Below, piece by piece: positions 22,576-49,259 of a stretch of DNA of 64,000 bases. The translations under genes and the position numbers were made by a program. Below the pieces are notes generated by a model. That model ran no database searches, was not told the origin of the DNA, and was given only the letters and a program-made list of their open reading frames with translations. Numbering within the stretch: the first letter of the stretch is position 1; each line of letters opens with the position of its first letter. This DNA is from Patescibacteria group bacterium. Its GTDB lineage: Bacteria > Patescibacteriota > Microgenomatia > Levybacterales > UBA12049. Location: positions 6,340-70,339 of the forward strand of contig JAMCXO010000002.1 in assembly GCA_023473545.1 (NCBI GenBank), written 5' to 3'.

Positions 22576-22650
22576 TCCGGTGTGGCTCAATGGTAGAGCG
22601 GCTCCCTGTTAAGGAGATGGTTGTAGGTTCGAGTCCTACCGCCGGAGCCA
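22576..22650 (+). tRNA. tRNA-Asn (anticodon GTT) with encoded CCA.
   Basis: Hand-folded cloverleaf: acceptor TCCGGTG/CGCCGGA (one G-U pair), D-arm GCTC/GAGC, anticodon loop CTGTTAA, T-arm GTAGG-TTCGAGT-CCTAC, discriminator G + CCA. Confidence 0.85.
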
Positions 22651-24111
22651 AAGTTGACGAGAGGCGTAAAAAGCTATCTTGTCAAACGGATTTATCCAGT
22701 CATATCGGGCTTTTTTACCCTTCAGTTCTAAGTTCTGAAGTGCCATCTTCAAAAGTAGCCGTTTTTCGTGGGCTTCAGAACTCTCAAAGACTTTTCCAGC
22801 GTTTTCAGCCAGCTTTAGCAGGTAAGATGAGGTGATATAGTATTCCTCATCGGCAAATTGTAGCTTCTCAATTTTCTTGTTGATAGCCTTTTGTTTTGCC
22901 CGATACTCTTTTCGTTTTTTCTCATAGTAGCTCTCAGTAATACTGCCGTCTATTTTGTCTTCCCAAGCCCGCTCAATGCGGTTCTCGTATTTTTTGTATT
23001 CCGATTGGTAGCGATTAAGCAGGCTTTGATGAAACTCTGATTTGTCCTTATGTGAGCTTTTCAGGGAAGTGGCTATATCCTCAACTACATCAGGGGGCAT
23101 TTGGAGCTTGTCAAACAGGCTTACAAACTGTTTGGTTAAGTCGTCTTCTGTTAGCCACTCAGCCCCGTGTTTACCGTTATATTGAGTGCAGTGGTAGTAG
23201 TGATAGACATTTCCGCTTTTCTTTATCTTACGCTCAGGCGTAATCATACAACCGCAGTCGGCACACCTGATTAAGCCTCTATAAGGAAAAGCCAAGCCCG
23301 CATACTTAAAGCGTTTTTTGTTAAACCCTGCTTTTATATCCTGCACTTTGTCAAAAAGTTCTTGGTCAATTACTCGGTCGTAGTTGTGCGTGTATTCTTG
23401 CCCATCATAAAGCATTGTCCCGCAGTAAAAGGGGTTTTTGAGGATAAAATCAATCTTGCCTTTGGAAAAGTCAAAGCCAAACACTTCTTTAATTTTGTTT
23501 CTTACTTCAAGCATTGAGTAACTGCCTGTGGAATACCACTGATACATTTTCTCAACTATCTCTGCCTCTGGTTCGTCAATGCCTATCCATTTTGAGCCGT
23601 CCTCTCTGGTTATATTTTTGTAGCCGTAAGGGGCTTTACCAGGATACTCGTTTTTGCTTATCTTGAACTTGGCGGTATTGATAGCGTCTTCTTTGAGGCG
23701 GTTAAGGTATTGCTTAGCAAGAAAGACCTTCAAGTCCCAATCCTGAATATCCCTGCCAACGCTATCTTTGTTGATAACAAGGTGGTCGTAAACAAAGTGA
23801 ATTTCCTTGCCATAGTCCAGCCGTAGTTCATCAATCTTAACGGCATCTCGGTAGTTTCTGGTTATGCGGTCAACTCGGTAGGAAATGATAACTTTTATGT
23901 CGTCGCTTGCCTTAACAAACTCAATCATTTCGTTAAAGCGTTTGCGTATCTTGTAGTCGGCACTTTCGCTAAAAACAAACTCTTTGACCACCTCAAAATC
24001 TCTTTTGACCGCATAATCTCTAAGTTCAGGGAGTTGAATGTCCTTGAGCGATAAGCCTTCTTTTTCTTGTTTGAGTGTTGATACTCTGGCTAAAATTACG
24101 GCTTTGGTCAT
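22636..24111 (-). CDS. Large serine recombinase (integrase): resolvase catalytic domain, recombinase domain and zinc ribbon. Its 3' end overlaps the tRNA-Asn 3' end.
   Basis: N-terminal resolvase motif (AVILARVSTLKQ...SLKDIQ; YRVDRITR), C-terminal zinc ribbon (RCADCGCMITPE) and coiled-coil. Confidence 0.85.
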   Translation of the reverse strand: MTKAVILARVSTLKQEKEGLSLKDIQLPELRDYAVKRDFEVVKEFVFSESADYKIRKRFNEMIEFVKASDDIKVIISYRVDRITRNYRDAVKIDELRLDYGKEIHFVYDHLVINKDSVGRDIQDWDLKVFLAKQYLNRLKEDAINTAKFKISKNEYPGKAPYGYKNITREDGSKWIGIDEPEAEIVEKMYQWYSTGSYSMLEVRNKIKEVFGFDFSKGKIDFILKNPFYCGTMLYDGQEYTHNYDRVIDQELFDKVQDIKAGFNKKRFKYAGLAFPYRGLIRCADCGCMITPERKIKKSGNVYHYYHCTQYNGKHGAEWLTEDDLTKQFVSLFDKLQMPPDVVEDIATSLKSSHKDKSEFHQSLLNRYQSEYKKYENRIERAWEDKIDGSITESYYEKKRKEYRAKQKAINKKIEKLQFADEEYYITSSYLLKLAENAGKVFESSEAHEKRLLLKMALQNLELKGKKARYDWINPFDKIAFYASRQLWLRR

Positions 24112-24112
24112 A

Positions 24113-25483
24113 TCAGTTCAAAATCATAGCCTCAACTTGTTTTTTTGCTTCATTTAATAACTTAGAGGCTTCGGTTTTTAGTTTTTCTACTTCTTGATAT
24201 TTTTCCATAACTTTATTTGAAATATCTTTCTGCTTTTCTAGTGGGGGTAAAGGTAATAAGAAGCTCTGTATTGTAGGAATTGTAATGTTGCCTTGAATTG
24301 CCCCGATACGCTCTCTTTGGACTAGTAATTTTGAAATATCGCTATTCAGCCAGACTGATGCATAATTGTTATTAAGTTGCTCATTAAGCCTAAACTTAAT
24401 CATAAAAGAGCCATAAGCAAAGCCGTCAGCTTTTTTAGGAACTACCGCTACTATACCTATGCTTCCACTTCTTGAGATGAGCAGGTCATTTTCGTAAACA
24501 AAACAGTTGCCTATTTCTTTTTCCTTACTTTTTGGTAGATGAACAACATCAGTTAAATCTATATGATTAGGTTTTAGATTTAATATCCTAAGCAATGGTA
24601 TACCGTCAGCCATATAATCGTTTTTAACAGAAGCCCCGTAACGGATTTCGGTTATATAGTTACCAAGCTCTTTAATCGGGTATTTGCTACTCTTGAGTTG
24701 GTTTATGGTCGTCGCAAACTTTGGATTGTGATAATAGGGGTCTTGGCGGTTGCCATCTAGGTCTTGTGAGTTGACGGTATAGATTTTTTCTTCCTCTGGC
24801 TCTTGGTAGTCTATGCCTAGCTGTTGCCTTACAAAGCCATCAATAGAGCTTAGTAGCTCGTCGGCTTGTTTTAGTTTTTGTTCTCTTGTTTCATAGGCTT
24901 TTTTTAATAAGTTGGTTATCTGTTTTTGTTTCTCTTCTGGCAATATGGGTATTAGCAGGTCTTCAACATCTTTAGTTTGTAATCTGGGCAATGTATTGCC
25001 CGTCATCAAGTAAGATGTTTGATTGACAACTAGATGAGAGCTAAGAAAAGCAAAGAGATAGTAGTTACTGCACTTGTGGGCTTCCAAAATATGGAACTCA
25101 GTTGAACATATCCCCTCGGTTGTAGCTAAGTGAACTTTGTTTAGGTATGGTCGTAATTTTGGAAAAAGAATGTTGCCAGCATTAAAGCTAAACGCACTAC
25201 CAAACTCTTTGCCTTGATCAACATCAGAAGCTATACCCGTATCACCTTCTATATTTTCAAGACCAAAATAGGGCGTGTCTTCGCTTGCTTCGCTAACAAT
25301 ATCTCTTTTGAATGTTGCTACTTGGCTAAGAGGCAAAACATCACAACTGAGTGATTTAATTCTTTTGACGGCATTTAGCCTAGTTGGGTGGTATGCACTA
25401 GGGTCAAGTCTTCCCTCAAGGTCATTGTAATTAACAAAATAAGTGTTCATATTAACCCTTGTAACCAGGTGTATTTTTAACAA
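24113..25483 (-). CDS. Restriction-modification specificity subunit (HsdS-like, two target-recognition domains). The true start is probably the internal Met at about 25450.
   Basis: Two TRD halves, each followed by a conserved coiled-coil spacer (EEKQKQITNLLKK...; LEKQKDISNKVMEKYQE). Confidence 0.8.
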   Translation of the reverse strand: MLKIHLVTRVNMNTYFVNYNDLEGRLDPSAYHPTRLNAVKRIKSLSCDVLPLSQVATFKRDIVSEASEDTPYFGLENIEGDTGIASDVDQGKEFGSAFSFNAGNILFPKLRPYLNKVHLATTEGICSTEFHILEAHKCSNYYLFAFLSSHLVVNQTSYLMTGNTLPRLQTKDVEDLLIPILPEEKQKQITNLLKKAYETREQKLKQADELLSSIDGFVRQQLGIDYQEPEEEKIYTVNSQDLDGNRQDPYYHNPKFATTINQLKSSKYPIKELGNYITEIRYGASVKNDYMADGIPLLRILNLKPNHIDLTDVVHLPKSKEKEIGNCFVYENDLLISRSGSIGIVAVVPKKADGFAYGSFMIKFRLNEQLNNNYASVWLNSDISKLLVQRERIGAIQGNITIPTIQSFLLPLPPLEKQKDISNKVMEKYQEVEKLKTEASKLLNEAKKQVEAMILN

Positions 25484-27278
25484 ACCGCTTATACTCCTCT
25501 CGGATTTCCGTTAGGTCGTTCTTTGGGTCTTTTCTGCCCGTTGCGTCGTAGCCTATATGGTCGGCAATAGCCATAAAGATAGGATAATTACCTAGTTTTT
25601 CGTTATCGCTTTTGCGTCTGAGGAAAACCAGAGAGGACTTAACCCCAGCTCCAAAGTGAGCAAAGGCAAATTGTGGTAGGGACACAATCGCTTCTATCTG
25701 GCATTTGTCCATTATGTAATCCCTTACATACTGCAAAGAGGAGTTAGATAAAATACCGTCGGGCAAGACTATGGCAATCCTGCCCGTTTTGGGTTTGACA
25801 AAGTTCACACAACGCTCAATAAACAGAATTTCTGTTTTTTGGTTTTTCTTGCCTTTGCCAAGCTCGTAATGGTCAAGGTAGTTTTTCTCGGTTGATTTAA
25901 CCGTTGCCCCAAAAGGGGGATTGGTGAGAATTAGGTCAAAACGGTCTTTGCCAAACTTAGTGTGCAGGTCGTTTATCTCGCTAAAATCTCTCAAGCTGTC
26001 GGTGCTGATGATATTGGTGTGTCCGTCGTCGTGGATAATCATATTCATCTTGCAGACCCTTGCTATCTGGTCGTTTATCTCAATACCATAAAGGTTATTC
26101 ATCGCAAAACTATGCCAGTATTCTTTGGCTTCCCAGTCGTCGTAGTTTGCCTCTGCGAAGTTTCTCACTTCATCAAGCGAGTTGAGCAAAAAGCCCCCGC
26201 TACCGCAAGCGGGGTCTAGGACTAAATCGCCTCGTTGCGGGTTCATCATTTCAACGCAAAACCTGATGATTTCTCTTGGGGTAAAGAACTGTCCCATCTT
26301 GCCCTTAAAGAAGTCTTCCATAAACCGCTCAAAAGCAATTCCTTTGGTGTCTAGGTCAATTTTGTTAATAGCTAGCCCCTGTAAATGTTCTACAACGCTG
26401 TAAACAACTTTCGGGTCAAGCCTGATGTCTTCCTTAAAGACTTCGCTGTCTTCCTGTTTGGCTTTGAGGTAAATAGAGTTGACCCGCTTAAATACTTCGT
26501 CGGCTGTTTCGTGTGTGCCAATTTGGAATTTGTAAGGCTCGCCTCGTTTGGTTAGCTTTTCGTCTCTTAACTTGCAGAACAAAAGTTTAGACACTTCATC
26601 AAAGGCGGTTGTTGGAGCTAATTTGCCACCTTGCCAGACAGTATCGTGGCTCTTGCCAAGAGCGGTTATCAACTCATCTTTGGAAACGGTTTTAAGCTCT
26701 TTGTCTTCTTCTCCTTTAATAAACCTGTATTTGGGCGTTCTGCCGTATTTAACGGGAATATCGGCAATGACATTTTTCTCTCGCTCGCTTGGCTTAAAAC
26801 CCGCAATATCAAAAGCAGTTTTGGTCGTGCCAGCTACCACTATGGCAAACTTGGCTCTTAGGCTGTTGGCGTTACCAAAGGCTTGCTCTATGGCTTGCTT
26901 AAACTCGGCGTCGGTTACCCCGTCTTTTTTGCACTCAACGATAAGGTAGGGGGTCTTGAGGTCATCGTCTTCGTAAATAACAATATCTGCTCGGTCTTCT
27001 GGGGTTCTTCTTGGGACAGTTACCTCAATGTCAATCTGGTTTTGGGGATATTGGTAGTCAAGGACAAGCTCAACAAAATAGGAAGCTCTAATCGTTTCTT
27101 CTGGGTTTTTGAACGAGGTTGAGTAATCCCTTGAGCAATGGTAGATAATGCGGGCGTTATCGTCAGTAAAAGAGATTAAGCCCTCTTGCTTGCCTCTTTC
27201 AATGTTTCTTAAAAAGATTGAGCCTCTGTCGTTGTTATTTGTCATTTTTCCTTTCATAACTGGTAATAAAGCGGTCAA
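25452..27278 (-). CDS. Fused restriction endonuclease-methyltransferase subunit (BcgI A-like): N-terminal PD-(D/E)xK nuclease (HSDR_N-like) plus gamma-class N6-adenine methyltransferase.
   Basis: Nuclease motif D(IVIYEDD)...LIVECKK in the first 120 aa; MTase motif I LDPACGSGGFL; motif IV LTNPPFG. Confidence 0.8.
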   Translation of the reverse strand: MTALLPVMKGKMTNNNDRGSIFLRNIERGKQEGLISFTDDNARIIYHCSRDYSTSFKNPEETIRASYFVELVLDYQYPQNQIDIEVTVPRRTPEDRADIVIYEDDDLKTPYLIVECKKDGVTDAEFKQAIEQAFGNANSLRAKFAIVVAGTTKTAFDIAGFKPSEREKNVIADIPVKYGRTPKYRFIKGEEDKELKTVSKDELITALGKSHDTVWQGGKLAPTTAFDEVSKLLFCKLRDEKLTKRGEPYKFQIGTHETADEVFKRVNSIYLKAKQEDSEVFKEDIRLDPKVVYSVVEHLQGLAINKIDLDTKGIAFERFMEDFFKGKMGQFFTPREIIRFCVEMMNPQRGDLVLDPACGSGGFLLNSLDEVRNFAEANYDDWEAKEYWHSFAMNNLYGIEINDQIARVCKMNMIIHDDGHTNIISTDSLRDFSEINDLHTKFGKDRFDLILTNPPFGATVKSTEKNYLDHYELGKGKKNQKTEILFIERCVNFVKPKTGRIAIVLPDGILSNSSLQYVRDYIMDKCQIEAIVSLPQFAFAHFGAGVKSSLVFLRRKSDNEKLGNYPIFMAIADHIGYDATGRKDPKNDLTEIREEYKRFVKNTPGYKG

Positions 27279-27438
27279 GGTCGGGTTTGTTTATGCGGTA
27301 TTGTTTACCCGCTTTATACGCCTTGAGCTTGCCGTCCTGTATCCAGCGATAGACCGTCAGATAAACCACCTTGAGCATTTTTGCCACTTCTTCTATGGTG
27401 TAGTATTTTTCTTCTGTCATATTAGCTGTATTTAACAT
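27235..27438 (-). CDS. Excisionase/MerR-like HTH DNA-binding protein.
   Basis: YTIEEVAKMLKVVYLTVYRWIQDGKLKAYK matches excisionase-family HTH proteins; the location in a mobile element supports it. Confidence 0.55.
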   Translation of the reverse strand: MLNTANMTEEKYYTIEEVAKMLKVVYLTVYRWIQDGKLKAYKAGKQYRINKPDLDRFITSYERKNDK

Positions 27439-28594
27439 TATTTAACATTTCTTCTTGATTTGCAAGTAGTTTTAATGGCTCAAAATCAGTTATCTGCTTT
27501 CGGAGTAGAGAGAATACGCTAACCTCATCAGCATAGTTAAGTTTTTGGATTTTCTTGTTTAGACTATACCAGTAGTAATTGCCGTGTCTTTTAGTCATCT
27601 GCCTGTAATCCCTTACACCAATTTCCTCAAGCAACATTCTGAAGCCAGTAAGCTCAAGAGCTTGAGTGGGTTTCAGTTTTGGGTTTGCTACCAATAGTCT
27701 CTCAAAGAACTTTTTAGGGCTGTCGTATTGATATGTCAGTAAAGTCGGATAGGCTTCTTCAATCTCGTTGATGTAATAAAGCAATACCCTTTTAGCCGTA
27801 TCTTGGTTAAAGATGTTTGTAAAAGTTGGTTCTACTTTTTTACCAATTTTGTTGAGGATTTGGTTGATTTTCTGCCGTTTGTTTAGCCGTATCTCAACTC
27901 GCAATACCTCAAATGGTTTTCGTTGGGTCAGAACATCAAATAAGCCAAGCTGCAGGGCATTATCCTTTTCTTCAGCTCGTTTTTCGCTAATTTTAGCTTG
28001 CTCTAAGTCCTTGATTTTGTCGTAAAAAACAATCTCAAACGAGTTAGCCCGATACTTGAAGCTATGCCCCTCGTTCCTAAAATCAGTTCTGTTTGTATCC
28101 AGCCGTTTATTGATATTGAGCTTGGTTAGTTGTTCAAGGTAAGTATAGGGCGTCGTATAGTCAGTTAAGGCTATATTTTTAGAGTAATGGACTGATGAAA
28201 CGGGAGCGTTTATCAGGTTTTTCTCAAAGAGGTAAACACCCATTTCTTTTAGGACGGCTTTAAGTTTTTGGATGATAGTAGGAAAATCAGTGTCCGTTAG
28301 CTCGTCAAAGTTATTGCCGTAAAGCAGTTTTGGAATAGAAAATTCAATTTTAAGCGGCATCTCAAAATTACCCTCTCGGTTTATCCGCTTGGTAACAGTT
28401 AGTCTGGGCTTATAAAGACCTCTCTTAAGTTCATTTGCAGTTGGGTTTTGCTTGCAAGTGATATTAGACCTACCACCCAAACGATAATAGCCAGTAGTTG
28501 GGTCAGTAAGCCCTCTGGTTGACGGACTAAAAAAGTCAGGTTCAAATATCGTATACATACCTGTATTAAGGGTTAAAACGATTGTGTCTATCAT
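27422..28594 (-). CDS. Hypothetical element protein, possibly a replication/initiator-type protein; no confident family.
   Basis: 390-aa ORF overlapping its neighbours on both sides in the element cargo. Confidence 0.3.
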   Translation of the reverse strand: MIDTIVLTLNTGMYTIFEPDFFSPSTRGLTDPTTGYYRLGGRSNITCKQNPTANELKRGLYKPRLTVTKRINREGNFEMPLKIEFSIPKLLYGNNFDELTDTDFPTIIQKLKAVLKEMGVYLFEKNLINAPVSSVHYSKNIALTDYTTPYTYLEQLTKLNINKRLDTNRTDFRNEGHSFKYRANSFEIVFYDKIKDLEQAKISEKRAEEKDNALQLGLFDVLTQRKPFEVLRVEIRLNKRQKINQILNKIGKKVEPTFTNIFNQDTAKRVLLYYINEIEEAYPTLLTYQYDSPKKFFERLLVANPKLKPTQALELTGFRMLLEEIGVRDYRQMTKRHGNYYWYSLNKKIQKLNYADEVSVFSLLRKQITDFEPLKLLANQEEMLNNVKYS

Positions 28595-28859
28595 AGTTGT
28601 TCATTACTTCTTCAAACCGCCTTACAATTTCGTTTTCTATTAACTGGGCAAACTCTCGGTTAATCGGATAAAAAATGTTGAGGCTTCTATCGGCTACCTT
28701 TTTAGTGGGGTAAACGAGCCTGTAGCTCCCATTAGGACGGGTCATAATGCCGATTGAGCCCAGATAGAGGTTTTGGTCTAAGACAAAGCTCGCAAATGCC
28801 ACTAAGCCGTTTTGCGGTTTTATAGGTATGATTTGAATTTCACTTAATCGGTTTGTCAT
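28566..28859 (-). CDS. SpoVG-family protein.
   Basis: LVAFASFVLDQNLYLGSIGIMTRPNGSYRLVYPTKK aligns with the SpoVG core (KAFASITLD..FVVHDIRVI.G.NGLFVAMPS.K). Confidence 0.55.
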   Translation of the reverse strand: MTNRLSEIQIIPIKPQNGLVAFASFVLDQNLYLGSIGIMTRPNGSYRLVYPTKKVADRSLNIFYPINREFAQLIENEIVRRFEEVMNNYDRHNRFNP

Positions 28860-28946
28860 AAGTCCTCGTTACATTTTCCCTGCGGTCAATTTCTATAAGC
28901 ACAGCAAAGAAATCAGCTAATCGCTTCTTTTCTTCAGGCGTCAAAA

Positions 28947-28967
28947 CAAACCCCTTTTTCAGGGGTT
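28947..28967 (-). terminator. Candidate intrinsic terminator on the - strand: stem AAACCCC/GGGGTTT with a 7-nt loop, followed by GTTTTG. It lies about 110 nt downstream of the 482-aa gene.
   Basis: Perfect 7-bp inverted repeat seen in the sequence, with a U-rich tract on the transcribed strand. Confidence 0.35.
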
Positions 28968-29075
28968 TAATCTTCTCAAGCTGAATGACTTTGCCGTTTT
29001 CCATTAAGCAAAGTCTAAGAAAAGAGGTGTGAGCTGAAGTTGTATTGCAGTTAGCTAACTGTTAGCTAATGCTGA

Positions 29076-30524
29076 CTAGAGGTATTTGGGATTTAGTTGA
29101 ACGGTTGATTTGTTGAAAATCAAAAGGTCATTAACGCCTGTCTTTGAGGCTATATGCTTAGACAGCCCATCGCAAGCGGGATAAAACTTATTTTTATTTT
29201 CTTTGGTTAGTTCCTCGTCTTTAGTATCCTCTATGGTTTCTATAACTTCGTCCCAAGACCACTCTTTTTTACGGCTCTTATCGTCTTTTAGCAGTAATTC
29301 AAGCAGTTTTGCCCTGAAGCTGTTTTTGTTTAGTTTGACCTTTTTGCCTTCAACATCCAGCTCGCCTTTCTGGGCATTGTAAGTAACCCTCAATTTTACT
29401 TTGCTTTGGTCTATTTTTAATTCGTCAGTTTTAGGCTTACTCTTGTTTTCCTCATTGGATTTTTGGCGTTTTTCAAATTCAGCCTTAAGAGCTTTATAGA
29501 AATCGTCAAACTTTATAAGGTCAATTCTTATATCTATGTTGCCGTATCCCACAACATCATCATTGTCATAATTGGCTTCCAGTGCGATACCTTCTCTAAG
29601 TAAGTATTGAGCACCTTCCCAGCGGTGCTGTTGGTAGCTTTTCCTTGTGCCTATGCTATCGTAGGGAAACAGCTCTAAAAATCTACCGATATACGGATAG
29701 GGAAATGATGGAATTACTACAGTGGTGCTTCTAGTCATCTGAAGTTGCTGGTCAATATCCGAGCAAACATCAAGGATTTTGAGAAGGTTGAGCCAGTCAA
29801 GATTATTGGGCTTTGATTTTTGTTTCAGCAAGTATTGTCCATACCAGTCATCAAAACCATCGTGGCATTTAACGAGAATAAAATTGGGATTTTTTGGTTG
29901 TTGATTAAGTGGGAGTAAACGATTGGTTTCTCGCCAAACAGTCAGGATTTTTTCTTCTTCTTGGAGTTTGTTCAAAATGCCGTATATTTCCTCTCTCTGA
30001 AACCCATCAAGACCGTTATTAGCACTTTTATAAAACAATTCTGTGGTTTGCCCTTTGACCGTAGCCTTTTTAGCTTCAACCAATGCCTTGAGAATAAGGT
30101 CTAGCTTTTCTTCATAGGTAATCAAAGTATCATTAGCGAGCTTTGTCGGGCTATCTGTTGGCTTCTTCCCCGTAAACTCTTGATATTCAGGTTCTTGTTG
30201 GATTTTCCAGAAATAGTCGTCAAAAGCGGGTAAAAGTTCAATATGCCAGCAGCCGTCGTCTTGCTGATAAGGTGGGTCGTAGGGGTCAAGGTCTTCAACG
30301 ATTTCTACTCTACTTATCCCGCTTGGCACTTGTAAAACCTTCAAAATCTGCTCATCCTTTTCCAGCTTGGTAAATAACTGTTTCAGTTCAATATCTCTAT
30401 ATTTGCGGTTAAGGTCGTTTGTCGGGTCTATTATCAACGGTTGACCCGATGGGGCTAATACCCGTGCATCGTTAATCGCTTCCAGTAGAAAATAAAGTTT
30501 TTCCTTGCCGTCCATCATAATCAT
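29076..30524 (-). CDS. Hypothetical 482-aa protein; no recognisable domain.
   Basis: Long uninterrupted ORF; it is the first gene of the co-directional cargo block. Confidence 0.5.
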   Translation of the reverse strand: MIMMDGKEKLYFLLEAINDARVLAPSGQPLIIDPTNDLNRKYRDIELKQLFTKLEKDEQILKVLQVPSGISRVEIVEDLDPYDPPYQQDDGCWHIELLPAFDDYFWKIQQEPEYQEFTGKKPTDSPTKLANDTLITYEEKLDLILKALVEAKKATVKGQTTELFYKSANNGLDGFQREEIYGILNKLQEEEKILTVWRETNRLLPLNQQPKNPNFILVKCHDGFDDWYGQYLLKQKSKPNNLDWLNLLKILDVCSDIDQQLQMTRSTTVVIPSFPYPYIGRFLELFPYDSIGTRKSYQQHRWEGAQYLLREGIALEANYDNDDVVGYGNIDIRIDLIKFDDFYKALKAEFEKRQKSNEENKSKPKTDELKIDQSKVKLRVTYNAQKGELDVEGKKVKLNKNSFRAKLLELLLKDDKSRKKEWSWDEVIETIEDTKDEELTKENKNKFYPACDGLSKHIASKTGVNDLLIFNKSTVQLNPKYL

Positions 30525-30775
30525 TACTTTTTCAAGAAATTATACTGTCTCTATTTTATCATTGTTTAACACTCTAAGGAAGGATTTTTAGAGGTTAGGC
30601 AGTAGCAAGGGCGGGTTGTTTCAATCCCAAGTTTTCAAAGAGGATTTTGAGGTCGCTAAGGGTTATACTAAACTCTAGTTGTTGGTTGCAGAACAAGTCT
30701 TTTAGGGGGAGCACTAACGTACAGAAATAACCAACAAATTACACAAACGAACACAGCCTCAATCCTAACATCCAC

Positions 30776-30835: not shown

Positions 30836-31993
30836 ATGAAAATCGGTAAGCTCATCCAACAACCCAGTGGGTATCAGGCATTTATCCCAGACAAATTCCC
30901 TCCAAAAGAGCAAATTGTTCTGAACTCCAAAACCCAGCAGCTTCACGCCAAGGCTGTGCTTATGCTGGGTAAATTAGATGGCATTACTCAATTACTTCCT
31001 GACCTGGATTTTTTCATTTTTATGTATATCCGCAAGGAAGCGGCTAAGTCAAGCGAGATTGAGGGGACTCAAGCCACCATTATTGATGTCATTAAAAGCG
31101 AGGCACAAATTGAAAGCCGTTTTCCACAAGATGTTGAAAGAATCATTCACTATATCAATGCTATGGAATATGGCTTGAATCGATTGGAAACCTTACCGTT
31201 ATCACTTCGGTTTATTAGGGAAATCCATAAGGTACTGATTGGTGGTACGATTGACGCTCCCGGTAAAACACCAGGAGAATTTAGGACCTCCCAAAATTGG
31301 ATCGGCGGAGGTTCTCCCAATACTGCTAAATTTGTACCACCAACACACGCAGAAATGAACCGATGCCTAGATGACTTTGAAAAATTTTTGCATGCTACCA
31401 ACGAGTACCCGCCACTTATTAAAGCAGCTTTAGCGCATGCCCAATTTGAAACCATCCACCCGTTCCTTGATGGTAATGGCAGAACTGGCCGGCTTTTAAC
31501 TACTTTTTATCTTTGTAAACTGGGTATCCTTGAAAGGCCAGTACTTTACCTATCTGAATACTTTTTGAATAACCAAAAGGCATATTACGGGTCGTTAAAT
31601 TCTTATCACCAAGAAGATGCTGATGTTTTCGGTTGGCTTGATTTCTTTTTAGATGGGGTGGCTATCATTGCGACAGAGGCAATTGAGGCGTCAAAAAAAA
31701 TCAATATTTTACGCCAGAAAGATACTATTAAGATTCAATCTTTGGGGCGGAGAACAAAAACAGGCATGATAGTTTTGGAAAATCTTTTTAAGCTTCCAAT
31801 TATCAGTGTCAGAAAAGTCGAAGAATGGACGGGGCTTTCTCGTCCCCAAGCCAACGATCTAGTTAAAAAGCTTATAGAGCTAGGAATTCTTGAGCAAAGA
31901 AATAAAAATATCAAGTATGACAGGGAATTTTGGTATAAAAAGTATCTTGATGTTTTCGTGAGTAAAGAAGAAATTAAAAAATCAAATGAATAA
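30836..31993 (+). CDS. Fic/DOC family protein (AMPylation-type motif) with N-terminal inhibitory motif.
   Basis: Canonical HPFLDGNGRTGR (HxFx(D/E)GNGRxxR), an upstream SxxxEG (SSEIEG), and a C-terminal winged-helix-like region. Confidence 0.85.
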   Translation: MKIGKLIQQPSGYQAFIPDKFPPKEQIVLNSKTQQLHAKAVLMLGKLDGITQLLPDLDFFIFMYIRKEAAKSSEIEGTQATIIDVIKSEAQIESRFPQDVERIIHYINAMEYGLNRLETLPLSLRFIREIHKVLIGGTIDAPGKTPGEFRTSQNWIGGGSPNTAKFVPPTHAEMNRCLDDFEKFLHATNEYPPLIKAALAHAQFETIHPFLDGNGRTGRLLTTFYLCKLGILERPVLYLSEYFLNNQKAYYGSLNSYHQEDADVFGWLDFFLDGVAIIATEAIEASKKINILRQKDTIKIQSLGRRTKTGMIVLENLFKLPIISVRKVEEWTGLSRPQANDLVKKLIELGILEQRNKNIKYDREFWYKKYLDVFVSKEEIKKSNE

Positions 31994-32157
31994 ACCTGAC
32001 TTTACCCTCGATAAAATCAAATTTGCCATTGATCAACCGACATTCAAGAAAGCAATGGCGCTATACGAAAGTGGCAAGGTTACCCAAGTCGAAGAAAGTA
32101 TTCGATTGTGTATAGGAGTTGTAAATGGCACAATGTCAGCGCATTCGATAAATTGAT
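31987..32157 (+). pseudogene. Short ORF (56 aa) that looks like an N-terminal fragment of a larger protein; probable gene remnant at the decayed end of the element.
   Basis: MNKPDFTLDKIKFAIDQPTFKKAMALYESGKVTQVEE, then a stop. Over 1 kb of AT-rich non-coding DNA with further out-of-frame fragments follows. Confidence 0.25.
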
Positions 32158-32553
32158 AATTTTATCAGTAGACCTAATGGATTAACTTTTGAAAAGATTT
32201 TTACAAAATCTTACACAAATTTTGGCTGCCACACTTCTATAAACTTCGTTAATGAAAAATTATGGGATATTTTCCTTTTTATATAGTGAGGTCTTTCAAT
32301 TAACTCCATCTTCCATTGAGTAAAATCGCCATATTTTCTCAATATACCGACTTTTTACCTGGATCAAACAAGCTGCCCAACGAAAGCAATACAATATTTC
32401 CTTTTACCAACAACAGTGGAATATCATTAAAGATGCCATTGCCCAGCAAATGAAACTTGAATTAACTGCTACCTAAGTGCGAAACTCGTGTAATTCTCCA
32501 ATTATTCCTGCCATTTTTTATTCCTTTCTATTATAGTGTGATATAATCCAGCT

Positions 32554-32805
32554 GTGTTTAAAAAAACAAAAGGATTTATCTCTAGTTTAATAACAATTAT
32601 TTTATTAGTAGCCATATTTCCTACATTATTTATTATTACTTTTATTGATTTTCCTCTTTATTTTTCTTCGTTTCCCTTAATAGTTCCTATATTAGGTTTT
32701 TTATTAGCTGCAGAAACAGGACTTTTTCTTATCGCGATTTTTCATTTAGTTAAAAATCTTAGTCTATCCTTTAAATCTCTTTCTCGGAAAACTAAAGTTG
32801 CTTGA
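32554..32805 (+). CDS. Small hydrophobic protein (83 aa, about 3 TM segments) in very AT-rich DNA.
   Basis: Preceded by a TGATATAAT extended -10 at about 32536; entirely hydrophobic. Confidence 0.3.
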   Translation: MFKKTKGFISSLITIILLVAIFPTLFIITFIDFPLYFSSFPLIVPILGFLLAAETGLFLIAIFHLVKNLSLSFKSLSRKTKVA

Positions 32806-33205
32806 GAAAAATATTTAATGTGCGATATTATTTTATTTTTTAATTATCTCTTTCTTCTATTTCTTTCTTATTTAGGGATTGAGATAATTAAGTCTTCATG
32901 GCCTACTAATAAAAGTACGGCTATGATCGCTCTCATTCCGTTATTATTGGGATTTTTCTTCTTTGTTTTCCCCACAACGCATAGTGGGATTTATAGTTCT
33001 ATGCTTTGCATTCTTCCTTAATTTTTAAAGAGCCACTAACTACTTCTTTTTTGTTATATACAGTAATACAATATCTTTTTGGGTCTGGGAAATCAAGGTA
33101 GAACTAAAAAATGTGGGTGAATCTTGTAGAGTTTTTTCATTTCCTCTTTGCTTATAATAATTATGACTGATTAATCGCAACGGAACTTTCTGTTATAATT
33201 TCATC

Positions 33206-33739
33206 GTGAATCTTATTTTTCTTTACGGAGCACCTGCGGTTGGTAAATTAACCATAGCAAAAAGTCTTGAACAAAAAACAGGATACAAACTTCTGCATAA
33301 TCACTTGCTTCAAAATCCTATCTCGGAGATTTTTTCATTTGATAATCCTTCTAACAGGCTTCTTGTAAGAGAGTTCCGTATGCGGATATTGGAAGAGGCT
33401 ATCAGGAGCAATATAAATCTTATTTTTACTTTTGGTATTGCAGGCAACAAGCCTTTTGACCATATAGATGGTATTGTTAATACTGCTAAATTACACGGAG
33501 CAAAAATATATATTGTGCAGCTTATAGCCGATAAAGAAACTCTTTTAGAAAGAGTAGAAAATCAATCAAGGAAAGACCATGGCAAAAATTTATCAAAGGA
33601 TTACTTGAAGAAATTATTTAGTGAAAATTCTGACATGTTAGATAAATATCCGAAGTTAGACCATTTAACTATTGATACTAAAAGTTTCACACCAGAACAG
33701 TCTGCAATTAAAATAATTGAATTCTATAAAATTGCCTAA
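33206..33739 (+). CDS. P-loop NTPase/kinase-like protein (AAA_33 / small-molecule-kinase-like).
   Basis: N-terminal LIFLYGAPAVGKLT glycine-rich loop; about 177 aa. Confidence 0.45.
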   Translation: MNLIFLYGAPAVGKLTIAKSLEQKTGYKLLHNHLLQNPISEIFSFDNPSNRLLVREFRMRILEEAIRSNINLIFTFGIAGNKPFDHIDGIVNTAKLHGAKIYIVQLIADKETLLERVENQSRKDHGKNLSKDYLKKLFSENSDMLDKYPKLDHLTIDTKSFTPEQSAIKIIEFYKIA

Positions 33740-33833
33740 CTGAGGAAATGTTCACAAATCGGTTTAAGGATAATATATTATCGCCTTAAATTGTTCCTGA
33801 CCGATTTATTAAAAGCTCTGATATAATCAACTT

Positions 33834-34253
33834 ATGAAGTTACCGCCTTATGTAAAATCAAAAAAATACATTGATTTTTTGCCAGTGCTAGGAAAATCAA
33901 CCGCCAATGCAATATATCCTTTTATTTTTTTGCCTGAGAAAATATTCAAAGATTTAAAAGGAGCAAATCCAAATCCGCGTAACAAAGCCCTTTTAAGACA
34001 CGAAGAAACCCATAGAAAAAGGCAAGTTCGGCAAGGAATATTCAAGTTTTGGATAAAATATTTATTGAATCCTAAGTTCCGTTTTAATGAGGAATTAATG
34101 GCTGATATAGAATATATGAAAGTTATTAAAAATAATAATCTTAAGTTTAATATAGAAAAAAGAGCGAAGCAATTATCGGGGCATTTATACCTCTGGCCAG
34201 CAAACTATAAAAAGGCTAAAAATAAACTAGAAGAAGCTTGGAATAGGAAGTAG
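33834..34253 (+). CDS. Hypothetical basic protein with an HExxH motif (HEETH).
   Basis: ORF with LRHEETHRKRQ; no family recognised. Confidence 0.35.
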   Translation: MKLPPYVKSKKYIDFLPVLGKSTANAIYPFIFLPEKIFKDLKGANPNPRNKALLRHEETHRKRQVRQGIFKFWIKYLLNPKFRFNEELMADIEYMKVIKNNNLKFNIEKRAKQLSGHLYLWPANYKKAKNKLEEAWNRK

Positions 34254-47624: not shown

Positions 47625-48215
47625 ATGGACAAAGAGAAAGAGGGGGAACCAAAAACAGAATTAACAATCCTGCCTCCTGCTGTTTCGCTGGCACTGGGCA
47701 CGTGGATAACAACCAATATCTTATCACAAGATAGAATCAACGCGCTACAGCAGCAGATTAAATCGGTTGGCGACCCGCTATTTAAAGGAGTGTTGGAAGA
47801 GGCTATGTCACAACTGCAGGAAAACCTAACGGGATTGGCAAGAGATCTCCGGGAAGGAAGGGTTGCTCTCGCGCAAAATCCTCAAAGCCCACACTTTGAT
47901 CAATCGCCACACTTTATATTTCAAAACGTAGAGCCGCCAGCACAAATGCCTACTGAACTGCCAGAGGGAGAACTATTTTTAGGCAATCCTCAAGCAACAA
48001 TGTTTATACTCACGTTTGCCGAACGTTTTGATAATTGGATTACTCCATTCGGACTCGACAGGAGAATCTATGCAAATTTATTACCGGTGAAAAAAGAAGT
48101 AGATGGACTAAAAAATGTTCCTAATGGTCTAATGATTAATATTGACAAAGATCGTAAAACGGCATCCTTAAATCCAGCGCCTGCCCAAAATCTTCCTGAA
48201 ACTTCGGACCTATAA
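47625..48215 (+). CDS. Hypothetical protein with higher-than-local GC.
   Basis: ORF only; no family recognised. Confidence 0.35.
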   Translation: MDKEKEGEPKTELTILPPAVSLALGTWITTNILSQDRINALQQQIKSVGDPLFKGVLEEAMSQLQENLTGLARDLREGRVALAQNPQSPHFDQSPHFIFQNVEPPAQMPTELPEGELFLGNPQATMFILTFAERFDNWITPFGLDRRIYANLLPVKKEVDGLKNVPNGLMINIDKDRKTASLNPAPAQNLPETSDL

Positions 48216-49259
48216 AACATACTTTGCTCCTTTTGTGCTTCCGTGCTTTTTGATAACCCCATGCTCTATCAATGCCTTAAGCTCATTTAAAATCGTATCC
48301 TCGGAAACCATTGGGAAAAGCATGTAGAATGCCTTATTCTGAAGATAGCCTGTTTCCTGAATATACTCGATGATTTTTAGCTGGCGCTCGGAAAGAAGAA
48401 CCGGTTTTCCGCCAAGTCTCTGCCTAAGCTTTCCGTCAACCGATATTCGCTCAACCTTTTCTTTTATTTTCGAAAGTTCGATCCCAAGACCCTTTGTGAA
48501 ATACTCAAGCCAGAGCGTTAAATCCCCGCCCTGGCTTTCAACGCTTTGTAATGCTCCATAATAACTATTGGCGTCTTTGTCAAAATACTCCTCGAGCGAG
48601 AAAAACTTTCTGATGTCATATCCTTCCATAAACAAAATAAGCGTTGATAACGCCCTCGCGACCCTGCCGTTACCATCTAAGAAGGGATGAATCCGCACGA
48701 GTTCATAATGAATAACTCCGGCTTTCAAAACAGGGTGTATAGTTTCCGCCGAAGACTCATCTACAAACGCAACTAAATCCGCGATTTGGGATTCTACCTG
48801 CTCGGATGGCGGAGGCCTAAAAGAAACCTCCAAGGTCTGATTATTTTTAATCACAACCTGCGTCTTTCTGTACTCTCCGCACTTTTCCCGCGGCAGAATT
48901 TTTTCCACAGTCATTCTATGCAATTTCCTAATCGTAGACTCCGTAATTCTTCCTTCCGTACTGCCGACTGCAAATTCCGAAATATAATCCATCACTTTTC
49001 TGTAATTTATAATCTCTTGAATATCACGCTCCCTGCCGATAACCTCCTGTCCCAAAATAACCCTTTCCGCCTGATCCAAGTTTAACCCATTGCCTTCTAT
49101 ATGGGTACCATAATGAACGGCTCGGACCAGGGCGCTGTCCCTAAACTGCTTTTCGTAAAAAGGTAAAAGAGGCGCGCCCTCAATAATTTCGCGGCATGCT
49201 TCAATAGCACCAATGTTTTTTAAAATTGCGTTGGTGATGGTAAATTTAGGCTGATACAT
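48210..49259 (-). CDS. Fic/DOC family protein (second copy in the window).
   Basis: HPFLDGNGRVARAL Fic motif and a C-terminal winged-helix-like region. Confidence 0.8.
   Translation of the reverse strand: MYQPKFTITNAILKNIGAIEACREIIEGAPLLPFYEKQFRDSALVRAVHYGTHIEGNGLNLDQAERVILGQEVIGRERDIQEIINYRKVMDYISEFAVGSTEGRITESTIRKLHRMTVEKILPREKCGEYRKTQVVIKNNQTLEVSFRPPPSEQVESQIADLVAFVDESSAETIHPVLKAGVIHYELVRIHPFLDGNGRVARALSTLILFMEGYDIRKFFSLEEYFDKDANSYYGALQSVESQGGDLTLWLEYFTKGLGIELSKIKEKVERISVDGKLRQRLGGKPVLLSERQLKIIEYIQETGYLQNKAFYMLFPMVSEDTILNELKALIEHGVIKKHGSTKGAKYVL

What the first reader, a model, noticed from the sequence alone, without database searches (positions are those of the whole stretch)
27422..30524. 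Uncharacterized element cargo (390-aa and 482-aa proteins flanking a SpoVG-like gene)
Two sizeable ORFs with no domains I can recognise lie between the excisionase and the Fic gene. They are tightly overlapping and translationally coupled to the SpoVG-like gene. Their position in a defense-bearing island makes them candidates for replication or partition functions, or for novel defense or anti-defense roles. A putative intrinsic terminator (28947..28967) separates the 482-aa gene from the downstream block.
Basis: inference. Interest (0 to 1): 0.55.

Follow-up and report, generated by a model that had tools for sequence, protein, structure and literature searches.

The report
Replication module of a Patescibacteria integrative element
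The two "unknown" genes are not cargo: they belong to the conserved core of a small mobile element found widely in ultra-small (Patescibacteria) bacteria. One is a distant relative of the filamentous-phage DNA-nicking replication protein, and the other is a new DNA-binding protein matched to short repeats beside its own gene.

Summary
The ORFs are real. On the minus strand they are 482 aa (29076-30524), an overlooked 54 aa (28840-29004), SpoVG-like (28566-28859), 390 aa (27422-28594) and HTH_17 (27235-27438).

They are the conserved backbone of an ~8.06-kb element (about 22649-30712) integrated into the 3' end of tRNA-Asn. GGAGC cores flank it and a large serine recombinase lies at one end. 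Fic lies outside the element. The only cargo is the restriction-modification pair.

The same gene order recurs in more than 100 loci, nearly all Patescibacteria. Four circular contigs carry the attP junction.

The 390-aa protein is a divergent G2P (gpII, Pfam Phage_CRI) rolling-circle initiator:
- Its AF2 model matches inovirus G2P models.
- 11 of 64 diverse relatives hit PF05144, one above Pfam's cut-off.
- The invariant Tyr191 aligns with the catalytic Tyr-197 of M13 gpII.

The 482-aa protein belongs to a new, unannotated family that looks like tandem winged helices. Its swappable C-terminal domain covaries with the 11-bp-period repeats (TTAGCTAAC x2, 29050-29069) between its stop codon and the 54aa-SpoVG-rep operon. 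It does not covary with Rep. I infer that it is the element's iteron-binding specificity or regulatory factor.

The "terminator" is a conserved hairpin, but it lies inside the 54-aa ORF.

This is a new variant of a known kind, an integrative rolling-circle element.

The parts
22576..22650 (+). tRNA-Asn (GTT), the integration target. Its 3' end is overlapped by the recombinase stop codon.
   Evidence: ARAGORN. Junction alignments show a tRNA 3' end next to the recombinase in more than 10 loci.
22644..22648 (.). Crossover core GGAGC at the recombinase-proximal junction, inside the tRNA acceptor 3' end.
   Evidence: Comparison of integrated, tandem and circular junctions.
22636..24111 (-). Large serine recombinase, 491 aa in the integrated state.
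   Evidence: Pfam Resolvase + Recombinase + Zn_ribbon_recom. Found within 7 kb downstream of rep in 30 of 31 loci.
24113..27278 (-). Variable cargo: an HsdS-like specificity subunit (24113-25483) and a 608-aa fusion of a nuclease-like HSDR_N_2 domain with an N6-methylase (25452-27278).
   Evidence: Pfam. A similar protein is present in only 10 of 31 related loci; other loci carry other genes.
27235..27438 (-). HTH_17 small DNA-binding protein (excisionase or regulator type). It overlaps rep by 17 nt.
   Evidence: Pfam HTH_17, E = 3e-16. Found downstream of rep in 81 of 99 loci.
27422..28594 (-). Rep: a 390-aa G2P/gpII-like rolling-circle initiator. The candidate catalytic residue is Tyr191 in the motif FYDK.
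   Evidence: Foldseek against BFVD inovirus G2P models. 11 of 64 relatives hit PF05144, and P0378 scores 27.6 bits against a cut-off of 21.7. Y191 is invariant and aligns with M13 gpII Tyr-197 (PMC5405960).
27429..27448 (-). Tandem 10-nt repeat ATGTTAAATA x2 at the 3' end of rep and the start of HTH_17, inside a zone of suppressed synonymous variation. Role unknown: internal promoter or cis site.
   Evidence: Sequence. Synonymous diversity is 0.10-0.20 here against a mean of 0.40. Promoter-like TTGCAA-17-AATAAT.
28566..28859 (-). SpoVG-domain protein (97 aa). Its 3' end overlaps the rep start by 29 nt.
   Evidence: Pfam SpoVG, E = 7e-9. It overlaps the rep start in 82 of 92 loci.
28840..29004 (-). 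p54: a conserved 54-aa protein and the first gene of the p54-SpoVG-rep operon.
   Evidence: Called as a gene in related contigs. 49 distinct homologues with a conserved LVLTPEEKKRLxDFFxxLIEIDRR motif.
28947..28967 (-). Conserved hairpin (AAACCCC...GGGGTTT) followed by GTTTTGA, inside p54. Candidate attenuator or origin hairpin.
   Evidence: 79% of cells paired against 73% in shuffles (0/500). 11 double-sided changes against 4.4 expected (0/500). Fold z-score -1.96.
29050..29069 (-). Iterons: TTAGCTAAC x2 with an 11-nt period, 6 nt after the stop codon of the 482-aa gene and upstream of a -10-like TAGACT and the p54 ATG.
   Evidence: These are the only two exact copies in the 64-kb window. The repeat type covaries with the C-terminal domain of the 482-aa protein across loci.
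29076..30524 (-). WH482: a 482-aa modular protein that looks like tandem winged helices. It has an optional N-terminal domain (residues 1-134), a conserved core (135-345), a K/E-rich linker and a swappable C-terminal DNA-binding domain (about 379-482).
   Evidence: AF2 model. The Foldseek PDB hits are all winged-helix proteins but weak. Family alignments. No annotated relatives.
30539..30568 (-). Promoter-like site upstream of the 482-aa gene, within the conserved block GTTAAACAATGATAAAAT.
   Evidence: Consensus scan, 10 of 12 positions. The block is conserved across loci.
30595..30711 (-). Latent C-terminal extension of the recombinase (LPLKDLFCNQQLEF...ATA*). It joins the recombinase ORF in frame only in the excised (attP) form. 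It also forms the element-side arm of the att site.
   Evidence: Conserved in-frame peptide in 31 loci. The recombinase is 528-540 aa in circular or tandem junctions and 491-500 aa when next to a tRNA.
30708..30712 (.). Crossover core GGAGC at the junction proximal to the 482-aa gene. This is the right-hand boundary of the element.
   Evidence: Similarity among loci breaks sharply at GCTCC|CCCTAAAGGACTT.

Best explanation
The finding covers the replication and control module of an ~8.06-kb integrative element (window about 22649-30712) inserted in the 3' end of tRNA-Asn of a Patescibacteria genome.

Shown:
- The order 482aa - p54 - SpoVG-like - 390aa - HTH_17 - [variable cargo] - large serine recombinase is conserved in more than 100 loci.
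- The junctions are defined.
- Circular contigs with the attP junction exist.
- The 390-aa protein is a remote member of the G2P/gpII (Phage_CRI) group, and its invariant Tyr191 sits at the position of the gpII catalytic Tyr-197.
- The short direct repeats just after the stop codon of the 482-aa gene change together with that protein's C-terminal domain. They do not change together with Rep.

Inferred mechanism:
1. The 482-aa protein binds its cognate 11-bp-period repeats through its C-terminal winged-helix domain. From that position it either controls the promoter that overlaps them (as activator or repressor) or marks the origin.
2. That promoter drives the translationally coupled operon p54-SpoVG-rep-HTH_17. 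A conserved hairpin early in p54 may attenuate it.
3. The serine recombinase, perhaps helped by HTH_17, excises the element as a circle.
4. Rep nicks one strand at a still unidentified origin, attaches through Tyr191, and primes rolling-circle replication by host enzymes.
5. The SpoVG-like protein acts as a nucleic-acid-binding accessory, binding ssDNA or the mRNA leader.
For: Element and synteny:
- Contexts of identical and related proteins and HMM-based gene maps of 120 loci: SpoVG overlaps the rep start in 82 of 92 loci; HTH_17 follows in 81 of 99; the 482-aa family is upstream in 45 of 63; the recombinase is downstream in 30 of 31.
- Boundaries and the GCTCC core come from aligned junctions.
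- Circular contigs L011, L048, L049 and L057 have terminal overlaps of 75-127 nt and carry attP junctions.

Rep:
- AF2 model with pTM 0.80.
- Foldseek against BFVD gave E = 2e-9 to 7e-5 at probability 1.00. One hit is named 'Replication-associated protein G2P [Inoviridae]', with TM 0.45-0.49 over 387 columns.
- 11 of 64 diverse relatives hit PF05144, best E = 5e-7. P0378 passes Pfam's gathering score.
- Y191, K193, R232, E234 and R236 are invariant.
- The FYDK and LRVEIRL motifs align with M13 gpII LVAY(197)LK and VRFEARIK.
- Tyr-197 is the residue covalently linked to DNA (PMC5405960).

482-aa protein:
- The model is a string of helix-strand domains, and its best PDB matches are all winged-helix proteins: RPC3, STK19, RTP, MarR/PadR, RpaA.
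- Five repeat types follow the stop codon, and each goes with one C-terminal domain type.
- C-terminal identity is 81% within a repeat type and 17% between types. For Rep the figures are 75% and 68%, with up to 96% identity between types.
- The exact repeat occurs only at this site in the window.

SpoVG proteins bind RNA, ssDNA and dsDNA (PMC11086051 and PMC4959528).
Against: - The window's own 390-aa protein gives no Pfam hit, and no PDB hit by sequence or fold. The direct profile-to-M13 comparison is weak (hhalign E = 0.044, probability 1%). Homology therefore rests on a transitive argument plus predicted folds.
- No nick site or origin was identified. The repeats do not covary with Rep, so Rep's own target is unknown.
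- Circular contigs could come from collapsed tandem arrays, and tandem arrays do exist (L060, L002, L027).
- The winged-helix assignment of the 482-aa protein rests on non-significant Foldseek hits (best E = 1.2e-3, pTM 0.44). Pfam scans of its sub-domains found nothing.
- DNA binding, the direction of regulation and the promoter are all inferred, not shown. The simple promoter scan did not flag the p54 promoter.
Confidence: 0.62

Rival explanations
1. The 390-aa protein is mainly a transfer relaxase, in the way MOBT relaxases are Rep_trans-type proteins. It would nick an oriT so that the excised element can be exported or mobilised, for example through the Patescibacteria type IV secretion or pilus machinery. 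It would not support vegetative replication.
For: The nicking-joining chemistry would be the same, with invariant Tyr191. Patescibacteria T4SS clusters mostly lack recognisable relaxases, and the authors of that study note that very different relaxases may remain to be found (PMC12102498). The element is very widespread across Patescibacteria classes, which implies efficient horizontal spread.
Against: The 8-kb element contains no coupling protein and no T4SS gene. The closest identifiable relatives are phage replication initiators, not relaxases. The two roles are not mutually exclusive.
Confidence: 0.18
2. The 482-aa protein is the true replication initiator, of the iteron-binding theta type with tandem winged helices like RepA, pi or RepE. 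The repeats would then be the origin (oriV). The 390-aa protein would serve another nicking role, such as resolution or transfer.
For: Direct repeats lie next to the gene and match the protein's swappable DNA-binding domain. The fold looks like tandem winged helices, with weak matches to RTP and to a Rep WH1 domain.
Against: There are only 2-4 repeats with an 11-nt period, and they sit at the -35 region of a promoter-like site, which resembles an operator more than an oriV. No AT-rich unwinding region or DnaA box was seen. The 482-aa family was detected in only 45 of 63 loci, whereas SpoVG-rep is nearly universal. No sequence similarity to known initiators was found.
Confidence: 0.1
3. The element is a defective or satellite filamentous-phage-like (inovirus-type) prophage. 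Rep would correspond to gpII, the SpoVG-like protein to a gpV-like ssDNA-binding protein, and the small proteins to coat proteins.
For: The structural and profile neighbours of Rep are inovirus G2P proteins. A small nucleic-acid-binding protein is translationally coupled to rep. The element is small and integrates at a tRNA.
Against: There is no Zot/pI-type morphogenesis ATPase and no protein that looks like a membrane coat protein. p54 has no transmembrane segment. There are no relatives among 2.9 million IMG/VR viral contigs or 50,697 phage records.
Confidence: 0.05
4. One reading: the two proteins are novel defence or anti-defence cargo of a defence island.
For: They sit next to a restriction-modification pair and near a SoFic-type Fic gene.
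Against: They are the invariant backbone, while the restriction-modification genes are the variable part. There are no PADLOC hits. Fic is outside the element. Rep has a replication-initiator fold and motifs.
Confidence: 0.03

Closest known systems
Filamentous-phage replication initiator gpII / G2P (Pfam PF05144 Phage_CRI; M13, f1, fd)
   Same: The predicted fold matches inovirus G2P models. Family members hit PF05144. Both start with N-terminal MID, share the Y-x-K and R-x-E-x-R motifs, and the tyrosine aligns with catalytic Tyr-197. Both have a small nucleic-acid-binding protein encoded next to rep.
   Different: The window protein itself is below detection by Pfam. Identity to M13 gpII is about 15% over the aligned part. 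The host element is an integrative element with a serine recombinase and no virion genes. No origin resembling the Ff intergenic region was found.
Rep_trans initiators (pT181 RepC/RepD) and MOBT relaxases of streptococcal ICEs and IMEs
   Same: The same kind of chemistry is expected: a single catalytic tyrosine and no HUH motif. From my own recollection, not tested here, the motif pattern resembles RepC. IMEs with a serine recombinase and a Rep_trans-type protein are a known architecture (PMC7563843, PMC5704250; listed, not read).
   Different: No PF02486 hit for any of the 64 relatives. No PDB hit to RepDE-type structures by sequence profile or Foldseek.
Integrative elements that replicate by rolling circle after excision (pSAM2-type AICEs, ICEBs1); named from established knowledge
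   Same: The life-cycle logic is the same: site-specific integration in a tRNA gene, excision to a circle, a rolling-circle Rep or relaxase, and a small regulator controlling the switch.
   Different: The gene families differ: a G2P-like Rep, a large serine rather than tyrosine recombinase, a SpoVG-like partner and the 482-aa factor. There are no conjugation genes. The element is only 6.4-9.2 kb, and the host phylum is Patescibacteria.
pMV158-type double-strand origins (11-bp direct repeats as the 'bind' locus plus a hairpin as the 'nic' locus); named from established knowledge
   Same: There are 2-4 direct repeats with an 11-nt period and a conserved hairpin about 100 nt away, just upstream of and within the rep operon.
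   Different: Here the repeats covary with a separate protein, the C-terminus of the 482-aa protein, and not with Rep. The hairpin loop is not sequence-conserved, and no nick site was identified.
Integration-dependent switches in temperate mycobacteriophages, where attP lies inside a gene so that integration changes the protein's C-terminus; named from established knowledge
   Same: attP lies inside the recombinase ORF. The excised form encodes a protein 38-50 aa longer than the integrated form.
   Different: The gene affected here is the serine recombinase itself rather than a repressor. The functional consequence was not tested.

Membership tests
G2P / gpII rolling-circle initiators (Pfam PF05144 Phage_CRI) | Significant match to the PF05144 profile | tested here: inconclusive
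   The window protein gives no hit at E <= 1. However, 11 of 64 relatives (32-53% identical to it) do hit, best E = 5e-7. P0378 scores 27.6 bits against the gathering cut-off of 21.7, matching residues 80-203 to profile positions 65-184.
G2P / gpII rolling-circle initiators (Pfam PF05144 Phage_CRI) | Catalytic tyrosine equivalent to gpII Tyr-197 | tested here: met
   Y191 is invariant in 64 diverse relatives. It aligns with M13 Y197 in both hmmsearch and hhalign. Tyr-197 is the residue covalently linked to DNA (PMC5405960).
G2P / gpII rolling-circle initiators (Pfam PF05144 Phage_CRI) | Overall fold like G2P | tested here: met
   Foldseek against BFVD gave five full-length hits at probability 1.00 (E = 2.4e-9 to 7e-5), including inovirus proteins, one of them named G2P. 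These are comparisons between predicted models only; PDB gave nothing.
G2P / gpII rolling-circle initiators (Pfam PF05144 Phage_CRI) | Site-specific nicking of an origin with a covalent 5'-phosphotyrosine intermediate | not testable with these tools
   This needs biochemistry. No origin or nick site could be identified by comparison.
Rep_trans (PF02486: pT181 RepC/D, MOBT relaxases) | Match to the PF02486 profile or to RepDE-type solved structures | tested here: not met
   PF02486 is not among the families hit by the window protein or by the 64 relatives. PDB profile searches and Foldseek against PDB found nothing.
Integrative element with a large serine recombinase | Recombinase with Resolvase + Recombinase + Zn_ribbon_recom domains at one end | tested here: met
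   Pfam. Position conserved in 30 of 31 loci.
Integrative element with a large serine recombinase | Defined junctions with a short common core, and an attP form in excised or circular DNA | tested here: met
   The GCTCC core is present at both ends. Flanks diverge sharply at the core in more than 15 loci. Four circular contigs carry the fused junction.
SpoVG (PF04026) for the 97-aa gene | Domain match, and orthology to the septation regulator SpoVG | tested here: inconclusive
   The Pfam domain passes (36.1 bits against 29.6). The NCBIfam equivalog fails (26 bits against 108). It is therefore a SpoVG-fold protein but not the housekeeping SpoVG.
OmpR/PhoB-type winged helix (Trans_reg_C) for the C-terminus of the 482-aa protein | Profile or fold match to Trans_reg_C | tested here: inconclusive
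   Foldseek hit RpaA (9dvt_S) at probability 0.99 but E = 0.19. In Pfam only the type-C variant hits, at E = 0.09, and the window's type A does not hit.
Known anti-phage defence systems (PADLOC) | Match to any defence-protein model | tested here: not met
   No hits for the 390-aa, 482-aa, SpoVG-like or p54 proteins. Only Fic, which is outside the element, hits: SoFic, E = 2e-109.
Inovirus prophage | Morphogenesis ATPase (pI/Zot) and coat proteins; presence in virus collections | tested here: not met
   None of the eight proteins scanned, which include every long ORF of the element except the HsdS-like one (plus Fic outside it), has such domains. No relatives in IMG/VR or in phage records.

The most novel reading that the evidence does not exclude
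These 6-9-kb elements may be the main family of self-replicating integrative plasmids of Patescibacteria, with three features not described together before:
1. A very divergent gpII-type nickase coupled to a SpoVG-fold protein. It could also be the 'missing' relaxase of the relaxase-poor Patescibacteria T4SS.
2. A separate, domain-swapping specificity factor (the 482-aa protein) paired with matching 11-bp-period iterons. This pairing would define incompatibility or immunity groups and allow tandem co-residence at one tRNA.
3. A serine recombinase whose C-terminus is rewritten by integration, giving a built-in sensor of the integrated or excised state.

If this holds, the elements would supply a native replicon, an integrase with its att pair and a regulator-operator set for genetics in this phylum, where such tools are scarce.
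Probability: 0.2. Interest if true: 0.8.

Novelty: new variant of a known kind. Interest (0 to 1): 0.6.

Why it matters

This analysis defines a widespread element family: 1243 clusters of Rep relatives at 50% identity, spread across many Patescibacteria classes. For this family it gives the boundaries, the att sites, circular forms, a candidate replication initiator with a named catalytic residue, and a predicted protein-DNA specificity pair that can be tested directly.

It turns two "hypothetical proteins" into concrete hypotheses. It also offers parts that could be used to build genetic tools for these organisms: a serine integrase with a tRNA-Asn attB, a rep module, and regulator-operator pairs.

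Finally, it shows that the restriction-modification genes are the element's cargo, and that Fic is not part of the element.

Tried and rejected
Searches that found nothing:
- Direct scans of both proteins against Pfam, PHROGs, NCBIfam, PADLOC and PDB sequences.
- PDB profile searches with alignments A1, A2 and A3. The only hits were chance matches to crystallins, Hrs and ChlH.
- Foldseek against PDB for the 390-aa model.
- tblastn of the 390-aa protein against the phage and plasmid collections, and the IMG/VR scan.
- A profile search with the core of the 482-aa protein, the last large search available. It returned only unannotated relatives.
- Pfam scans of the sub-domains of the 482-aa protein and of p54.

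Ideas tested and dropped:
- A long direct repeat of the tRNA 3' end as an att site. None exists. The core is only 5 nt and was found by comparing junctions instead.
- The conserved ~80 nt at the element end as the replication origin. It is coding sequence, the recombinase C-terminal extension.
- Locating the origin through suppressed synonymous variation inside rep. Only the two gene-overlap ends stand out, which is not decisive.
- Fic as part of the element. It lies outside the boundary.

Full report
**1. What is in the sequence**

All relevant genes lie on the minus strand. Read in the direction of transcription they are:
- a 482-aa ORF (30524 to 29076);
- a 71-nt gap;
- a 97-aa SpoVG-domain ORF (28859 to 28566);
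- the 390-aa ORF (28594 to 27422);
- a 67-aa HTH_17 ORF (27438 to 27235);
- a 608-aa protein fusing a nuclease-like HSDR_N_2 domain to an N6-methylase;
- an HsdS-like protein;
- a 491-aa large serine recombinase (24111 to 22636), whose stop codon lies inside tRNA-Asn (22576-22650).

The overlaps are 20 nt (p54/SpoVG), 29 nt (SpoVG/390 aa) and 17 nt (390 aa/HTH_17). The 482-aa gene is not.

Pfam confirms the SpoVG, HTH_17, Fic, methylase and recombinase assignments. Neither large ORF matches anything in Pfam, PHROGs, NCBIfam, PADLOC or PDB sequences.

**2. The genes are backbone, not cargo**

The 390-aa protein has 1981 homologues. One is an identical protein labelled "Patescibacteria group bacterium". 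A full HMMER scan of 1.84 billion representatives found 1243 clusters. The 482-aa protein has at least 284 homologues. None of these carries a Pfam domain.

Contexts of one close relative, 32 loci from species-representative genomes and 80 metagenome loci were mapped with HMMs built here:
- The SpoVG gene overlaps the rep start in 82 of 92 loci with enough upstream sequence.
- HTH_17 follows rep in 81 of 99.
- The 482-aa family lies upstream in 45 of 63, and p54 in 35 of 63.
- A serine recombinase lies within 7 kb downstream in 30 of 31.

What varies is the stretch between rep or HTH_17 and the recombinase. It holds a restriction-modification pair in 10 of 31 loci, and SHOCT or unknown genes in others.

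By their record titles the hosts are Shapiro-, Collier-, Beckwith-, Woese-, Pace-, Peri-, Peregrini-, Berkel- and Saccharibacteria and WWE3. Gottesman- and Roizmanbacteria are named for 482-aa homologues.

**3. Boundaries**

Aligning the DNA upstream of the 482-aa homologues shows a sharp break. All elements share GCTCC|CCCTAAAGGACTTRTTCTGCAACC, and everything to the left of it differs. At the other end the recombinase gene runs ...CGTCAnnnTGGCTCC| into the reverse complement of a tRNA 3' end.

In the window the GGAGC cores are at 22644-22648 and 30708-30712. The element is therefore about 22649-30712, or 8.06 kb. Fic (30836-31993) is outside it.

Four contigs have exact terminal overlaps of 75-127 nt and contain the fused (attP) junction: L011, L048, L049 and L057, giving circles of about 9.2, 7.6, 7.6 and 6.4 kb. 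Fused junctions also occur inside long chromosomal contigs (L060, L002, L027). Tandem arrays therefore exist, and some "circles" could be collapsed tandems.

**4. The 390-aa protein**

An AF2 model built from 51 homologues is confident (pLDDT 78, pTM 0.80). Foldseek found nothing in PDB. Against predicted viral structures it found five full-length matches at probability 1.00. Two are from Inoviridae, and one of those is named "Replication-associated protein G2P" (E = 7e-5, TM 0.45-0.49).

I aligned 64 diverse representatives (32-53% identical to the window protein). Eleven of them hit Pfam PF05144 (Phage_CRI, the G2P N-terminal domain), best E = 5e-7. One of them, P0378, scores 27.6 bits, above Pfam's cut-off of 21.7.

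The invariant residues are D3, T4, P63, K89, N95, E98, K139, N140, G176, Y191, K193, R232, E234 and R236.

Aligning the family profile to M13 gpII puts FYDK (Y191) on LVAY(197)LK, and LRVEIRL on VRFEARI. Tyr-197 is the residue that becomes covalently linked to the nicked strand (PMC5405960, citing Asano et al. 1999). The direct profile-to-sequence score is weak (hhalign E = 0.044). The assignment therefore rests on the combination of fold, transitive profile hits and motif register.

No Rep_trans (PF02486) hit was seen. I conclude that this is a deep, undescribed branch of the gpII-type rolling-circle initiators.

**5. The 482-aa protein**

The AF2 model has good local confidence (pLDDT 79) but low pTM (0.44), as expected for domains joined by linkers. 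The best PDB matches are all winged-helix proteins: RNA polymerase III subunit RPC3, STK19, the replication terminator protein, MarR/PadR regulators, TFE-alpha and RpaA. None is significant. A profile search with the conserved core found only unannotated relatives.

The informative evidence is comparative. Directly after the stop codon every element has 2-4 short direct repeats with a period of about 11 nt. A -10-like TAGACT or TATAAA follows, 8-10 nt before the p54 start codon.

At least five repeat types occur: TAGCTAA, ACCTAAA, CCCTTTT, GGCTCC and AACTAACTG. Each goes with one type of C-terminal ~105-aa domain. In numbers:
- C-terminal identity is 81% (minimum 57%) within a repeat type and 17% between types.
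- Rep identity is 75% within a type and 68% between types, and nearly identical Reps (96%) occur with different repeat types.

In the window the exact TTAGCTAAC occurs only at 29050-29058 and 29061-29069.

I infer that the C-terminal domain recognises these repeats, and that the protein is the specificity factor for the promoter or origin of the p54-SpoVG-rep operon. I cannot tell whether it activates, represses or loads Rep.

About half of the homologues lack the N-terminal 134 aa. The middle domain also comes in variants.

**6. The "terminator"**

The hairpin AAACCCC-loop-GGGGTTT followed by GTTTTGA (28947-28967) is real, and it is conserved across repeat types. On 35 distinct sequences:
- 79% of cells pair, against 73% in shuffles (0 of 500 shuffles reach this value).
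- There are 11 double-sided changes against 4.4 expected (0 of 500).
- Pairing is best in register.
- The fold z-score is -1.96.

It lies in codons 13-19 of p54, downstream of the repeats and the promoter-like site. If it is functional, it is an attenuator of the rep operon or an origin hairpin. It is not the terminator of the 482-aa gene. Coding constraint (the Pro...Gly codons) may explain part of the conservation.

**7. Proposed mechanism**

The steps are given under the best explanation. The roles of p54, SpoVG and HTH_17 are inferred. SpoVG proteins bind RNA, ssDNA and dsDNA (PMC11086051 and PMC4959528). The origin was not found. The conserved ~80 nt at the element end turned out to be coding sequence. 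Inside rep, only the two gene-overlap ends show suppressed synonymous change.

**8. Comparison and novelty**

The life cycle resembles that of integrative elements that replicate by rolling circle after excision, and of IMEs with a serine recombinase and a Rep_trans-type protein. The differences are:
- a gpII-type Rep that is beyond direct Pfam detection;
- its constant pairing with a SpoVG-fold protein;
- a separate, domain-swapping, repeat-matched factor from a new family;
- the host phylum;
- a recombinase gene that spans attP.

I found no description of this element. Two literature searches on Patescibacteria mobile elements returned no paper that describes it, and two papers I searched by keyword contain no mention of it. 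There are no matches in the annotated phage, plasmid or viral collections.

I rate it a new variant of a known kind, with interest 0.6.

Noticed in passing
window 30595-30711 (-) together with 22636-24111 (-); loci L011, L048, L049, L057, L060: The serine recombinase ORF spans attP. In circular or tandem junctions it reads on into a conserved peptide (LPLKDLFCNxxLEF..L.DLKI.F..LGL.QP...) and is 528-540 aa long. Next to the tRNA it stops after 2-10 tRNA-encoded codons and is 491-500 aa long. Integration therefore rewrites the recombinase C-terminus, which could act as a switch sensing the integrated or excised state.
   Followed up: partly
window 30836-31993 (+) and 48210-49259 (-): The Fic gene (PADLOC SoFic, E = 2e-109) lies 124 nt outside the element boundary, so it is not part of this element. 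A second, weaker Fic-like ORF lies about 17 kb away.
   Followed up: partly
window 24113-27278 (-): The cargo restriction-modification pair has no HsdR. The 608-aa protein fuses an HSDR_N_2 nuclease-like N-terminus to an Eco57I/N6_Mtase domain and is paired with an HsdS-like protein. This looks more like a BcgI-type (type IIB) system than a classical type I system. Similar pairs recur as cargo in 10 of 31 related elements.
   Followed up: no
L002, L016/L017, L021, L023, L027, L060 (upstream of the 482-aa homologue): A second, often divergent, serine recombinase ends exactly at the GCTCC|CCCTAAAGG junction. Different elements of this family therefore sit in tandem at one tRNA site. This fits the idea that the repeat and C-terminal-domain types define compatibility groups.
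   Followed up: partly
window 27429-27448 (-) and rep codons 1-25 and 371-390: Synonymous variation in rep drops from about 0.40 to 0.10-0.20 at both ends. The drop extends beyond the gene overlaps. The 3' zone holds a tandem ATGTTAAATA x2 and a promoter-like TTGCAA-17-AATAAT. This could be an internal promoter for HTH_17 and the cargo, or a cis-acting site.
   Followed up: partly
482-aa family, residues about 230-345 (alignments A2/A6): The middle domain of the 482-aa protein, and not only its C-terminus, occurs in at least three non-alignable variants (SKPENLDWLNLLK..., TGLENIDYINMLR..., GKIENLSEANFKE...). About half of the homologues lack the N-terminal 134 aa.
   Followed up: no
L010, L013, L019, L020, L023, L025 and others; L024, L029: Many MAG records that carry this element are titled 'uncultured Gammaproteobacteria' or 'Pseudomonadota', and two are titled Dehalococcoidia. 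These are likely placeholder labels or mis-binning, but a wider host range was not excluded.
   Followed up: no
window 32000-34000: A low-GC stretch (0.31 against about 0.41) to the right of Fic, with only small hydrophobic ORFs and no long gene. It may be a remnant of another insertion.
   Followed up: no
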